Source: a virus
Lineage: Duplodnaviria > Heunggongvirae > Uroviricota > Caudoviricetes
Direction: 5' to 3' (one strand)
IMG/VR virus record: IMGVR_UViG_2690316131_000008
Length of the DNA: 16,062 bases
Shown: positions 3,712 to 4,430 of the stretch, piece by piece
Layout of the letters: each line of letters opens with the position of its first letter
Position numbering within the stretch: position 1 is the stretch's first letter
Translations under genes and position numbers: made by a program
The notes under the pieces: model-generated
What the model saw: the letters and a program-made list of their open reading frames with translations, nothing else
Database searches by the model: none
Told to the model about the DNA's origin: nothing

Positions 3712-4107
3712 TTACCGAGTTGCTAATTTGCAACTCGCTTTTTCGTACTTACTGATAGTGATCTCGACCTTCCCCTCCGGGATAACCGGTCCCCACTCCA
3801 CCAGCATTCTTTTCACCTGTCTGTCGTCTTCCCACACACCCGCGTGGGTCAGGGCGTCAAACAGCGCCTTGTTATAGTTGTCCAGATCGCGGATCCGGTT
3901 ATCCGGAGGAAACAACACGATCTCCACTGAAGCAGGTGCCGACGTTGGTTTCGGCAGACGACGTAACTGCTCAACTATTGCTGCACACGCCGCGCTCTGG
4001 AATTTTCGCCCCGCCGCGCTTATCAGGCTCTTACCAGCAAACGCCCCTTTGTTGGGGTGTCGCCAGTACGTGTTCACGCTGGGCGGAAAAGGCAGTATTA
4101 GCTTCAT
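3712..4107 (-). CDS. rusA: RusA-family Holliday junction resolvase
   Basis: MKLILPFPPSVNTYWRH...DLDNYNKALFDALTHAGVWEDDRQV matches the RusA signature (LPxPPSxNxYxRH; DLDN; acidic catalytic residues). ATGA overlap with the upstream gene. Confidence 0.8.
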   Translation of the reverse strand: MKLILPFPPSVNTYWRHPNKGAFAGKSLISAAGRKFQSAACAAIVEQLRRLPKPTSAPASVEIVLFPPDNRIRDLDNYNKALFDALTHAGVWEDDRQVKRMLVEWGPVIPEGKVEITISKYEKASCKLATR

Positions 4108-4430
4108 ACTTTCAGGCCCCTCTCATGTAACCAGTGGGCTGCACGCAGCCTGGCGTTTGCCTCACCGGCAAGCAGGGCGCGGATAATCCCGACCGCCTCG
4201 CTGTCGTCGTCCTTCACCGCGGTATGAAGAGTGATACCCCGGGCCACGCCACGCTTTATCGTGATGACACCTTTTTTCTCCAGTGCGCGAAGATGCTCCA
4301 CCGCTGCATTCACCGAACGGTATCCCAGCATGGTTGCCACCTCCTGATTGGTTGGCGGGAAGCCACGTTCTTTCTGATAAGAAATCAGCATATCCAGCAC
4401 CTGCTGCTGGCATTGAGTTAATGTCGTCAT
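4104..4430 (-). CDS. LexA N-terminal DNA-binding domain protein, no peptidase domain
   Basis: [66 protein letters not shown] parallels the LexA N-terminal winged-helix domain. Only 108 aa, so no S24 domain. ATGA overlaps at both ends. Confidence 0.65.
   Translation of the reverse strand: [108 protein letters not shown]

What the first reader, a model, noticed from the sequence alone, without database searches (positions are those of the whole stretch)
4104..4430. LexA DNA-binding domain without the peptidase domain, inside the replication operon
The 108-aa protein parallels the LexA N-terminal winged helix (…[36 protein letters not shown]…) but is too short to hold an S24 autoprotease. It therefore cannot be inactivated by RecA-stimulated cleavage. 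If it binds SOS boxes it could act as a non-cleavable modulator of SOS or prophage genes; it could also be a phage-specific regulator that merely shares the fold.
Basis: partly seen in the sequence, partly recalled or inferred. Interest (0 to 1): 0.5.

Follow-up and report, generated by a model that had tools for sequence, protein, structure and literature searches.

The report
Protease-less phage LexA DNA-binding protein
A small prophage gene encodes only the DNA-gripping half of the bacterial SOS repressor LexA plus a short helical tail, so DNA damage cannot switch it off; it sits in about 40% of complete E. coli genomes, in every locus examined directly before the rusA nuclease gene, and I found no study of what it binds.

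Summary
ORF 4104-4430 (minus strand, 108 aa) is a full LexA winged-helix DNA-binding domain (Pfam PF01726, E=3e-19). It is about 51% identical to E. coli LexA residues 2-70, and the model superposes on DNA-bound LexA at 0.9 Å. There is no S24 peptidase. It is a real gene under purifying selection (dN/dS 0.15-0.26).

It is not new as an annotation. It matches SfV orf42, mEp460 gp46 and PHROG 362, and is named "LexA family transcriptional regulator" in 2,233 of 5,426 complete E. coli genomes, including Stx2 phages. I found no functional study.

New details from this work:
- A conserved C-terminal two-helix hairpin follows a flexible linker.
- In all 13 distinct loci examined, rusA lies next downstream, usually with a 4-nt overlap, and the two genes co-diverge.
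- Four of five LexA DNA-contact residues are kept. E44 and R28, near-invariant in real LexA, are never kept in this family.
- Strong SOS boxes lie in this phage at 3647-3666 and 3-22. In three distant relatives an SOS box lies upstream of the gene's own operon.

Best reading (confidence about 0.4): a RecA-proof, LexA-like dimeric regulator that binds SOS-box-like sites during lytic growth. The closest characterised analogue is GIL01 gp6. Interest is moderate.

The parts
4104..4430 (-). Gene for the 108-aa stand-alone LexA-type DNA-binding protein (equivalent to SfV orf42, mEp460 gp46, PHROG 362)
   Evidence: ORF. Pfam PF01726 E=2.9e-19. PHROG 362 E=4e-59 over the full length. PDB LexA E about 1e-15. 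dN/dS 0.15-0.26.
4227..4430 (-). Residues 1-68: winged helix-turn-helix (helices 6-22, 28-35, 40-52; strands 56-58, 66-68), homologous to LexA residues 1-68
   Evidence: AlphaFold2 secondary structure and pLDDT about 88-89. Foldseek 3jso_B rmsd 0.9 Å over 67 columns, 51% identity. Gapless alignment to LexA 2-70.
4275..4313 (-). Residues 40-52: recognition helix [13 protein letters not shown], preceded by S39. It keeps S39, N41, A42 and E45 of LexA; E44 is V.
   Evidence: Alignments. Contact-residue list from PMC3091678.
4206..4226 (-). Residues 69-75: low-confidence, variable linker (HTAVKDD)
   Evidence: pLDDT below 50 for residues 71-75. This is the indel-rich and most variable stretch among homologues.
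4119..4205 (-). Residues 76-104: conserved two-helix C-terminal hairpin (model helices 74-88 and 93-103; family motif EAVxxIRALLAxExxARxRAxxWLxxRG). It is a candidate dimerisation or partner-binding module and is absent from LexA.
   Evidence: pLDDT about 90. The motif is conserved in relatives only 40-50% identical, and A97 and L101 are invariant.
4439..4443 (-). GGGAG Shine-Dalgarno sequence 8 nt upstream of the ATG, inside the 3' end of the methyltransferase gene
   Evidence: Read directly from the sequence.
3712..4107 (-). rusA (Holliday-junction resolvase). Its ATG overlaps the stop codon of the LexA-like gene (ATGA). It is the constant downstream partner of the LexA-like gene.
   Evidence: Pfam RusA E=1.3e-14. 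Overlap read. Adjacency in all 13 distinct loci examined, with co-divergence.
4427..5113 (-). Dam-type N6-adenine DNA methyltransferase. Its stop overlaps the ATG of the LexA-like gene (ATGA). RefSeq annotates the same gene in another genome from the start equivalent to window 5080.
   Evidence: Pfam Dam E=1.1e-44. Annotation. Overlap read.
5080..5571 (-). PerC/YfdN-like gene, the first gene of the roughly 97%-identical block (about window 3739-5200 and beyond) shared by the related phages found
   Evidence: Pfam PerC E=1.3e-8. Block limits.
3647..3666 (.). Strong SOS (LexA) box in the 150-bp rusA to KilA-N intergenic region, 85 nt upstream of the GTG start at 3561 (97 nt upstream of the ATG at 3549). 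Minus strand reads TACTGTATTTATGAACAGTG, a perfect CTGT-N8-ACAG.
   Evidence: Exact pattern match. Sequence. 22.0 bits on my PWM, against 12.9-26.8 bits for the training sites. The same spacer occurs in PhiR49_1 and SfIV.
2734..3561 (-). KilA-N domain gene (PHROG 129 'transcriptional regulator') directly downstream of the SOS box; a possible SOS-inducible regulator or antirepressor-type gene
   Evidence: Pfam KilA-N E=1.3e-15. PHROG 129 E=4e-109.
3..22 (.). Second strong SOS box (minus strand TACTGTAAAAATATCCAGTT). It lies in the first codons of the late-region DNA methyltransferase gene, whose start is at about window 30 and whose body lies outside the window.
   Evidence: 24.2 bits. Gene identified from the 99.9%-identical prophage in NZ_CP148357.1. 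An equivalent box occurs at the start of SfV orf48 and mEp460 gp53.
7754..7782 (-). pR-like promoter (TTGACC-17-TAACAT) upstream of cro. It is the only promoter-like site found upstream of the LexA-like gene on its strand.
   Evidence: No promoter-like site was found between cro and rusA.
7825..8451 (+). The phage's own immunity repressor (HTH_3 + Peptidase_S24), a RecA-cleavable type
   Evidence: Pfam Peptidase_S24 E=1.6e-27 and HTH_3 E=3.5e-9.
1348..1734 (-). Antiterminator Q, marking the end of the early-right/nin region that contains the gene
   Evidence: Pfam Phage_antitermQ E=1.5e-47.

Best explanation
[quoted passage not shown] The architecture is a winged helix (residues 1-68), a short flexible linker, and a conserved two-helix hairpin (residues about 76-104) in place of LexA's S24 dimerisation/cleavage domain.

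Shown:
- The fold.
- The absence of a protease.
- Retention of S39, N41, A42, E45, R64 and G65.
- Purifying selection.
- Position in the pR-driven early-right (nin) operon, with ATGA start/stop overlaps (suggesting translational coupling) to dam and rusA.
- Strong SOS boxes in the same phage.

Inferred:
- The hairpin dimerises the protein. This would recreate LexA's layout of DNA-binding domain, flexible linker and dimer module.
- The dimer binds CTGT-type, SOS-box-like palindromes.
- The protein is made only once pR is derepressed. After SOS induction of this S24-type cI prophage, that is when host LexA has been destroyed. It would then re-occupy SOS-box promoters in a way RecA cannot reverse.
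- Likely targets are the phage's own boxes (upstream of the KilA-N gene and at the start of the late methyltransferase), SOS-controlled genes of co-resident prophages, and the host SOS regulon.
- Its fixed pairing with rusA suggests that the two act in the same phase of lytic DNA metabolism.
For: 1. LexA-type DNA-binding domain. Pfam E=2.9e-19. 51% identity and 0.9 Å rmsd to the DNA-bound LexA N-terminal domain.
2. Contact residues. Four of the five literature-listed contact residues are kept. S39 is kept in 16/16, N41 in 15/16 and R64/G65 in 16/16 of the short family. S39, V40 and N41 do not vary among 43 close clusters.
3. No S24 domain. The phage's own cI is S24-type.
4. Tail. It is confidently helical (pLDDT about 90), lies behind a disordered linker, and is conserved down to 40% identity.
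5. Expression. No promoter-like site was found between pR/cro and the gene, and it has ATGA overlaps on both sides.
6. SOS boxes in the window. Two boxes score 22.0 and 24.2 bits. A 22-bit match is expected about 0.004 times by chance in 16 kb (my estimate).
7. SOS boxes in relatives. In L013, L016 and L029 a 21-26.5-bit SOS box lies in front of the small ORF that precedes the LexA-like gene. In L013 and L016 a terminator and a promoter-like element precede the box; the operon continues rusA, DUF968, Q in L013 and L016.
8. Portability. The conserved mobile block (PerC-dam-lexA-like-rusA) contains no SOS-like site of its own. It moves between phages with different immunity and late regions. A trans-acting target must therefore be something generally present, such as host-type SOS boxes.
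9. Geometry. LexA's DNA-binding domain is joined to its dimer domain by a flexible linker (gp6 paper figure legend).
Against: 1. No binding data exist, and none were found in the library.
2. E44 and R28 are kept in 8/9 and 9/9 LexA-sized relatives but in 0/16 of the short family. Specificity or affinity may therefore differ from LexA.
3. The 66%-identical Citrobacter homologues read SVNTIAGH or SVNTITGH instead of SVNAAVEH, four consecutive helix-3 changes including E45G. P0189, whose own operon carries a near-consensus SOS box, has lost A42 and E45. This looks like diversifying operator specificity, not conservation of a fixed host site.
4. Strong SOS boxes, including the same methyltransferase box, occur in a related prophage that lacks the gene (L005). 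Many carrier loci show no box within the flanks fetched. The boxes are therefore explained by host LexA alone.
5. Dimerisation of the tail is not shown. The single-chain pTM is only 0.56.
6. pR read-through would transcribe the KilA-N gene regardless of the box, so the benefit of re-repressing it is unclear.
Confidence: 0.4

Rival explanations
1. gp6-type regulator. The domain was captured from LexA but now reads a phage-specific operator that is not the SOS box. It activates or represses one or a few phage promoters, as GIL01 gp6 does at P3.
For: - GIL01 gp6 is a truncated LexA homologue, 44% identical to its host LexA DNA-binding domain. It binds GaCACAn nTGTGaC and activates transcription (PMC6182141).
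- Stand-alone LexA DNA-binding-domain proteins of 65-150 aa are common in phage structure predictions.
- E44 and R28 are lost across the family.
- Helix 3 is rewritten in close Citrobacter relatives and in P0189. This is the pattern expected for co-evolving operator specificities.
Against: - The only sequence shared by all carriers is the coding block itself. It contains no obvious palindromic operator, and no SOS-like site at PWM score 9 or above.
- The flanking regions where a phage-specific operator would sit are non-homologous between carriers.
- In the E. coli clade the LexA reading residues S39, N41, A42 and E45 are intact and almost invariant.
- Late genes here have a Q antiterminator, so a gp6-like late activator is not needed.
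Confidence: 0.3
2. RusA-coupled factor. The protein works with or on the RusA Holliday-junction resolvase, for example by targeting, restraining or timing it through the C-terminal hairpin. The LexA-like domain would supply DNA affinity rather than promoter control.
For: - rusA is the next downstream gene in all 13 distinct loci examined, at 40-97% protein identity. Ten of the 13 have a 4-nt overlap.
- The genes on either side of the pair are replaced by non-homologous ones.
- RusA identity falls in step with LexA-like identity: 95/97, 65/90, 45-51/75-79 and 43-44/63-66.
- A DNA-binding domain with a different 150-aa architecture also precedes rusA in L028.
Against: - RusA is described as acting on its own as a homodimer (PMC10956419).
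- Conserved order is common in lambdoid nin regions without any functional coupling (established knowledge).
- A 67-aa ORF (L013) or a reversed gene (L017) can separate the two.
- Strong conservation of LexA's base-reading residues argues for sequence-specific binding.
- No interaction evidence exists.
Confidence: 0.15
3. Protein-level SOS modulator. The helical tail binds host LexA or RecA*, and the residual 'LLAGE' resembles LexA's VAAGE cleavage site. The protein would alter the SOS response by protein-protein contact rather than by occupying operators, in the way GIL01 gp7 or DinI act.
For: - HMMER aligns ALLAGE (residues 85-90) with LexA RVAAGE (residues 81-86).
- Related phages carry other SOS modulators, such as DinI-like genes.
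- gp7 is a precedent for a small phage protein that binds LexA.
Against: - The Ala-Gly is not conserved in the family (ALLANE, AMVERE, ALLTRK, EMIDDQ and others).
- The segment is predicted helical, not an extended cleavage loop.
- This reading leaves the strongly conserved DNA-binding domain unexplained.
Confidence: 0.08
4. Inert remnant of a captured lexA gene with no present function.
For: Many truncated or frameshifted copies exist in the databases.
Against: - dN/dS is 0.15-0.26.
- An intact 104-108-aa ORF is found in thousands of members and in 2,223 genomes at 80% or more coverage.
- The family-specific tail is conserved down to 40% identity.
- The gene has a Shine-Dalgarno sequence and start/stop overlaps with both neighbours.
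Confidence: 0.02

Closest known systems
GIL01 (Bacillus thuringiensis tectivirus) gp6, a phage-encoded truncated LexA homologue (PMC6182141)
   Same: Phage-encoded. It consists essentially of the LexA winged-helix DNA-binding domain and has no S24 domain. It is expressed from the early operon of an SOS-inducible temperate phage that also carries LexA boxes.
   Different: gp6 has only a 14-residue C-terminal extension that forms the wing, and no helical hairpin. It binds a non-SOS palindrome overlapping the -35 element and activates the late promoter. It belongs to a Gram-positive tectivirus with no cI and no Q. No sequence comparison with gp6 was run here. Function and target of the present protein are untested.
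E. coli LexA N-terminal domain (residues 1-84; PDB 1lea, 3jso)
   Same: About 51% identity over residues 2-70 with no gaps, and the same fold at 0.9 Å. S39, N41, A42, E45, R64 and G65 are identical. The length corresponds to LexA up to its cleavage site.
   Different: E44 is V, R28 is N and P40 is V. The tail is an unrelated conserved helical hairpin instead of the S24 dimerisation/cleavage domain. The gene is phage-borne and paired with rusA. It fails the lexA equivalog cut-off (70.7 against 110.95 bits).
Non-cleavable LexA mutants (for example S119A and G85D; PDB 1jhh, 1jhf), as a functional analogy only
   Same: If it binds SOS boxes, it would behave as a repressor that RecA* cannot remove.
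   Different: Those are full-length host proteins with a disabled protease. This is a natural, domain-level deletion with a new tail, made only from a phage operon.
SfV orf42 / mEp460 gp46 / PHROG 362 / NCBI 'LexA family transcriptional regulator' (WP_000210152.1-type)
   Same: The same protein at 95-100% identity, and the same dam-lexA-like-rusA arrangement.
   Different: Nothing of substance. These are annotations by similarity ('transcriptional repressor', and even 'SOS-response repressor and protease LexA'), not experimental characterisations.

Membership tests
LexA repressor proper (NCBIfam TIGR00498 equivalog; S24 family) | N-terminal LexA-type winged-helix DNA-binding domain | tested here: met
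   PF01726 E=2.9e-19 over profile positions 1-65/65. 0.9 Å rmsd to 3jso_B.
LexA repressor proper (NCBIfam TIGR00498 equivalog; S24 family) | C-terminal S24 peptidase/dimerisation domain with the Ser119/Lys156 dyad | tested here: not met
   The protein ends at residue 108. TIGR00498 matches only positions 1-91 of 203 and scores 70.7 bits, below the 110.95 cut-off. There is no Peptidase_S24 hit. The next gene is rusA.
LexA repressor proper (NCBIfam TIGR00498 equivalog; S24 family) | Ala84-Gly85 cleavage site in an extended loop | tested here: not met
   A residual A88-G89 ('LLAGE') aligns with VAAGE. It is not conserved in the family and lies in a predicted helix.
LexA repressor proper (NCBIfam TIGR00498 equivalog; S24 family) | Specific binding to CTGT-N8-ACAG SOS boxes | not testable with these tools
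   Four of five listed contact residues are kept, but E44 and R28 are lost across the family. EMSA or ChIP is needed.
Pfam PF01726 LexA_DNA_bind domain / PHROG 362 | Significant full-length match to the family profile | tested here: met
   PF01726 scores 69 bits against a cut-off of 23.7. PHROG 362 E=4.2e-59, aligned 1-108 to 1-106/106.
gp6-type phage truncated LexA homologues (GIL01) | Phage-encoded LexA DNA-binding domain lacking the S24 domain | tested here: met
   Definition from PMC6182141.
gp6-type phage truncated LexA homologues (GIL01) | Direct sequence relationship to gp6 itself | not tested
BFVD hits include Tectiviridae 'LexA DNA binding domain' proteins at 23-28% identity.
gp6-type phage truncated LexA homologues (GIL01) | Binds a non-SOS palindrome at a late promoter and activates transcription | not testable with these tools
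   No candidate operator was found. Late control here is by Q.
LexA-DBD/RusA cassette of Enterobacterales lambdoid prophages (defined here) | About 105-135-aa LexA DNA-binding domain plus helical-hairpin protein, encoded immediately upstream of rusA | tested here: met
   Window: 4-nt overlap. Twelve other distinct loci show the same arrangement. Found only in Shigella/Escherichia, Citrobacter, Kosakonia, Buttiauxella and Enterobacter in the species-representative scan.

The most novel reading that the evidence does not exclude
The LexA-like gene and rusA form a functional two-gene cassette. The protease-less LexA surrogate re-silences SOS-box promoters after host LexA has been destroyed. Targets would include the host ruvAB operon, SOS-controlled antirepressor or KilA-type genes of this and competing prophages, and the SOS-box operon that drives Q in some relatives. 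The induced phage would thus shut the host SOS programme down on its own terms and leave recombination intermediates to its own resolvase. Because the gene sits in about 41% of complete E. coli genomes, including Stx2 phages, this would be a widespread, RecA-proof second layer of SOS control affecting prophage cross-induction and Shiga-toxin release.
Probability: 0.15. Interest if true: 0.7.

Novelty: new member of a known kind. Interest (0 to 1): 0.4.

Why it matters
The SOS response controls prophage induction, Shiga-toxin release, mutagenesis and antibiotic tolerance in E. coli. A LexA look-alike that RecA cannot remove is present in 2,233 of 5,426 complete E. coli genomes, with up to four copies per genome, and in Stx2a, Stx2c and Stx2k phages. 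If it binds SOS boxes it could change the depth or duration of SOS induction. It could also set induction thresholds or arbitrate between co-resident prophages.

Its invariable pairing with rusA gives a concrete handle that I did not find discussed in the papers searched. Even if it turns out to be a gp6-style phage-specific regulator, it would be the first such case studied in lambdoid phages.

The experiments are cheap: EMSA, an SOS reporter and an in-frame deletion. So far the gene is known only from similarity-based annotation, some of it wrong (for example 'SOS-response repressor and protease LexA').

Tried and rejected
1. Testing whether SOS boxes mark carriers of the gene. Strong boxes are present in the window, SfV, mEp460, L004 and L018. 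The same methyltransferase box and the dinI boxes occur in a related prophage without the gene (L005). Many carrier loci have none in the fetched flanks. The co-occurrence of the methyltransferase box with the gene in the phage collection is explained by 4-kb linkage. I rejected this as evidence.

2. Searching for other CTGT/ACAG spacings (0-20) in the window, SfV and mEp460. Only N8 stands out, five times in mEp460, which is ordinary LexA geometry.

3. Searching for an operator inside the conserved block or downstream of rusA. I found no SOS-like site at 9 bits or above in 3712-5571. Only weak 7-8-bit SOS-like sites lie in the rusA to KilA-N spacers of L014 and L024, below every training site.

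4. Promoter scan. It found no internal promoter for the gene. The dam promoter annotated in SfV was not recovered by the scan in this window.

5. Defence-system reading. PADLOC gave only a marginal CARF-wHTH hit and methyltransferase hits.

6. Literature. Eight of the nine searches looked for work on this protein, and none found a functional study of it. The Stx-phage papers list it only in tables. The LexA-DNA structure paper (PMC2921665) and the RusA review (PMC94071) are not held. The roles of E44 and R28, and my recollection that RuvA blocks RusA, therefore remain unverified.

7. The search for related loci with the 16-sequence alignment failed because no stretch was conserved enough. The afdb50 fold library was unavailable.

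Full report
**1. Observation**

It spans 4104-4430 on the minus strand, runs from ATG to TGA, and encodes 108 aa.
- A GGGAG Shine-Dalgarno sequence lies 8 nt upstream of the ATG.
- The ATG overlaps the stop codon of the upstream gene (ATGA at 4427-4430).
- The stop codon overlaps the ATG of the downstream gene (ATGA at 4104-4107).
- Pfam LexA_DNA_bind matches over its whole length (E=2.9e-19).
- E. coli LexA chains in the PDB match at E about 1e-15, with residues 2-70 aligned one-to-one.
- The NCBIfam lexA equivalog matches only positions 1-91 of 203 and falls below its cut-off (70.7 against 110.95 bits).
- No S24 domain is present. The next gene is rusA.
- An AlphaFold2 model (65-sequence alignment, mean pLDDT 84) gives the LexA winged helix: helices 6-22, 28-35 and 40-52, and strands 56-58 and 66-68. 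It superposes on the DNA-bound LexA domain (3jso_B) at 0.9 Å over 67 residues with 51% identity.
- dN/dS against homologues is 0.15-0.26.

**2. Setting**

The window is the early region of a lambdoid prophage. On the plus strand lies an S24-type cI (7825-8451). On the minus strand the order is:
- a pR-like promoter (7782-7754)
- cro
- a CII/CP76-like gene
- a small gene
- a replication-type gene
- a PerC/YfdN-like gene
- a Dam-type methyltransferase
- the LexA-like gene
- rusA
- a 150-bp spacer
- a KilA-N gene
- DUF968
- Q

No promoter-like site was found between pR and the gene. It is therefore most simply a delayed-early gene of the nin-type region, downstream of replication rather than part of it.

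**3. How known is it?**

- The gene is 95-100% identical at the protein level to SfV orf42, mEp460 gp46, and genes of SfII, SfIV, the cdtI phage, fifteen Stx2c phages, Stx2a_1447 and phiSTEC1575-Stx2k.
- These are annotated variously as 'LexA DNA binding domain protein', 'LexA-like protein', 'transcriptional repressor' and, wrongly, 'SOS-response repressor and protease LexA'.
- It matches PHROG 362.
- It is present in 2,233 of 5,426 complete E. coli genomes, with up to four copies per genome.
- Eight of the nine full-text searches looked for work on it, and none found a functional study. Stx-phage comparative papers merely list it.
- Stand-alone LexA DNA-binding-domain proteins are common among predicted phage structures.
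- The one characterised precedent is GIL01 gp6. It is a truncated LexA homologue that binds a non-SOS palindrome and activates the late promoter (PMC6182141).

**4.

An exhaustive profile search found a family of about 105-135-aa proteins that align over the full length down to 40% identity.
- After the winged helix comes a variable, low-confidence linker (residues 69-75).
- Then comes a two-helix hairpin (model helices 74-88 and 93-103, pLDDT about 90). Its family motif is EAVxxIRALLAxExxARxRAxxWLxxRG, and A97 and L101 are invariant.
- This tail is absent from LexA.
- HMMER's pairing of ALLAGE with LexA's cleavage motif VAAGE is not conserved in the family and falls in a helix. It is not a cleavage site.

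The layout of DNA-binding domain, flexible linker and small helical module mimics LexA's own plan. It makes dimerisation through the hairpin the obvious inference, but this was not testable here.

**5.

The literature lists Ser39, Asn41, Ala42, Glu44 and Glu45 of helix 3 as LexA's DNA-contacting residues (PMC3091678). Asn41 contacts operator position 15 through a water molecule, and the CAG triplet is nearly invariant in operators (PMC5999292).

This protein keeps S39, N41, A42 and E45, and the wing residues R64/G65. E44 is V.

| Position | Short family (of 16) | LexA-sized relatives with an S24 motif (of 9) |
|---|---|---|
| S39 | 16 | 9 |
| N41 | 15 | 9 |
| A42 | 11 | 9 |
| E45 | 11 | variable |
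| R64/G65 | 16 | 9 / 8 |
| E44 | 0 | 8 |
| R28 | 0 | 9 |

The family therefore carries a paired, family-specific change at two positions that real LexA proteins conserve. I could not retrieve the LexA-DNA structure paper to say what those residues do.

Two further observations cut against a fixed SOS-box specificity.
- The 66%-identical Citrobacter homologues rewrite four consecutive helix-3 residues ([16 protein letters not shown] against SVNAAVEH).
- P0189 has lost A42 and E45.

Within the E. coli clade, however, S39, V40 and N41 are invariant and E45 is nearly so among 43 clusters. The support is qualified.

**6. SOS boxes**

I built a position-weight matrix from 27 E. coli LexA sites recalled from memory. 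Their form agrees with the consensus taCTGtatatatataCAGta quoted in PMC7556043. The matrix finds two strong boxes in the window.
- **3647-3666** (22.0 bits) is a perfect CTGT-N8-ACAG. It lies in the rusA to KilA-N spacer, 85 nt before the GTG start of the KilA-N ORF at 3561 and 97 nt before the ATG at 3549.
- **3-22** (24.2 bits) lies in the first codons of a late-region DNA methyltransferase whose body is outside the window. The equivalent box sits at the start of SfV orf48 and mEp460 gp53.

Three distant family members are more telling: L013, L016 and L029.
- In each, a 21-26.5-bit SOS box lies in front of a small ORF, which is followed by the LexA-like gene. In L013 and L016 this ORF is a conserved PHROG 1813 gene.
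- In L013 and L016 the box follows a terminator and a promoter-like element.
- In L013 and L016 the operon continues with rusA, DUF968 and Q. RusA in these loci is divergent, identified by Pfam and only weakly similar to the window's RusA.

In these phages the gene is itself in an SOS-controlled operon. That invites, but does not prove, feedback by a non-cleavable LexA-like product.

Against a special link:
- A related prophage lacking the gene has the same methyltransferase and dinI boxes (L005).
- Many carrier loci show no box in the flanks fetched.
- The conserved mobile block itself has none.

**7. The rusA link**

In all 13 distinct loci examined, at 40-97% identity, rusA is the next downstream gene. 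The loci come from Escherichia/Shigella, Citrobacter, Kosakonia, Buttiauxella, Enterobacter and metagenomes. Ten of the 13 have a 4-nt overlap.
- The upstream neighbour varies: Dam, a large DNA methylase, a replication protein, PerC or a small ORF.
- The gene after rusA varies: KilA-N, Rha/ANT or DUF968.
- RusA identity declines in step with LexA-like identity.
- Homology between mosaic relatives breaks inside the 3' end of rusA, not between the two genes.

This is a co-inherited cassette. Conserved nin-region order could explain it, but it is the strongest contextual regularity found. I could not find it discussed.

**8. Mechanism**

I commit, at about 0.4, to the following reading. The protein is a RecA-proof, LexA-like regulator that dimerises through its hairpin and binds SOS-box-like palindromes. 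It is made from pR after induction, when host LexA is gone, and it re-occupies SOS-box promoters of phage, co-resident prophages and host.

Shown:
- The fold.
- The absence of the protease.
- Residue retention.
- Selection.
- Operon position.
- The presence of SOS boxes.

Inferred:
- Dimerisation.
- Operator identity.
- Timing.
- Physiological benefit.

A possible rationale for the rusA pairing is that ruvAB is SOS-controlled and RuvA competes with RusA on junctions. This rests on my recollection and could not be checked. RusA background comes from PMC10956419.

Rivals:
- A gp6-type regulator with a private operator (0.3).
- A RusA-coupled accessory factor (0.15).
- A protein-level SOS modulator (0.08).
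- An inert remnant (0.02), effectively excluded.

**9. Classification and verdict**

It is not a LexA orthologue, because the defining protease and cleavage features were tested and not met. It is a member of the LexA_DNA_bind domain family and of PHROG 362. It is of the same kind as gp6, a phage-borne LexA DNA-binding domain without the protease. It differs from gp6 in lineage, in having the helical tail, and in the rusA pairing.

I rate it a new member of a known kind. As an annotation it is already known, and as a function it is uncharacterised. Interest is moderate (0.4). A specialist would not be surprised by its existence. Its prevalence in E. coli and Stx phages, the rusA cassette and the cheap decisive experiments make it worth a bench test.

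Noticed in passing
window 3-22 (and L005 31670-31689; L002 34170-34189; L003 41021-41040; L016 6239-6258): A strong SOS box (21-24 bits) sits in or just before the first codons of a late-region DNA methyltransferase gene downstream of Q. It is conserved in SfV orf48, mEp460 gp53, a prophage lacking the LexA-like gene, and a distant relative. I do not know why a LexA site would sit at the start of a gene in the Q-dependent late region.
   Followed up: partly
L003 (mEp460) 31970-31989; L004 37712-37731; L018 3103-3122; L020 1865-1884: Near-consensus SOS boxes (23-26.5 bits) lie inside the coding sequence of cI-like HTH+S24 repressor genes, in the linker between the two domains. There they encode TVYKNS or TVCKNS. 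The box recurs in E. coli, Shigella and Citrobacter prophages that also carry the LexA-like gene. The window's own cI (7825-8451) has no such box.
   Followed up: partly
L013 3006-3500; L016 2978-3500; L029 about 5467-5908: The arrangement is a terminator, a promoter (for example TTGCAA-16-TAATAA), an SOS box, and then a conserved 75-82-aa ORF (PHROG 1813, unknown function, 54% identical between L013 and L016). The ORF is followed by the LexA-like gene, rusA, DUF968 and Q. In these prophages an SOS-repressed promoter appears to drive the late-gene antiterminator directly. For L029 only the box and the LexA-like gene were checked.
   Followed up: partly
window 3647-3666 and 2734-3561: The KilA-N gene (PHROG 129) has its own SOS box in a 150-bp spacer. 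That spacer is found in only five records of the phage collection (PhiR49_1, PhiR49_1_star, two SfIV records and VIT_AJPSC). In SfV and mEp460 a KilA-N gene follows rusA after about 19 bp, with no box. It may be an SOS-inducible antirepressor-like function.
   Followed up: partly
proteins P0131, P0133, P0148, P0151, P0152, P0154, P0156, P0160 and others: Several library proteins of 140-350 aa match the query in two separate stretches. They apparently carry two LexA DNA-binding domains in tandem, as single-chain 'dimers'.
   Followed up: no
L028 6001-6453: A 150-aa protein from an Enterobacter MAG has the LexA DNA-binding domain (51% identity over residues 1-68) but a different, longer C-terminal part. 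It also overlaps the start of rusA.
   Followed up: no
window 14956-15528 and 14540-14959 (minus strand): A SocA/Panacea-domain antitoxin-like gene (Pfam E=2e-19) is followed by an overlapping 139-aa ORF with no family hit. This may be a toxin-antitoxin or defence pair in the early-left region.
   Followed up: no
window 9247-10314 and 13386-13961 (plus strand): The early-left operon encodes an RdgC-like protein (E=9e-31) and an Rv2179c-like 3'-5' exoribonuclease (E=1e-74). These are unusual accessory nucleic-acid functions for a lambdoid prophage.
   Followed up: no
L003 (mEp460) 22993-23306; L005 552-861: DinI-like genes with two tandem SOS boxes occur in related prophages both with and without the LexA-like gene. 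These phages carry several independent SOS-modulating modules.
   Followed up: no
window 655-1299 (minus strand): A 214-aa ORF between Q and the late methyltransferase has no Pfam hit here. RefSeq annotates it as a WYL domain-containing protein in two of the related genomes listed.
   Followed up: no
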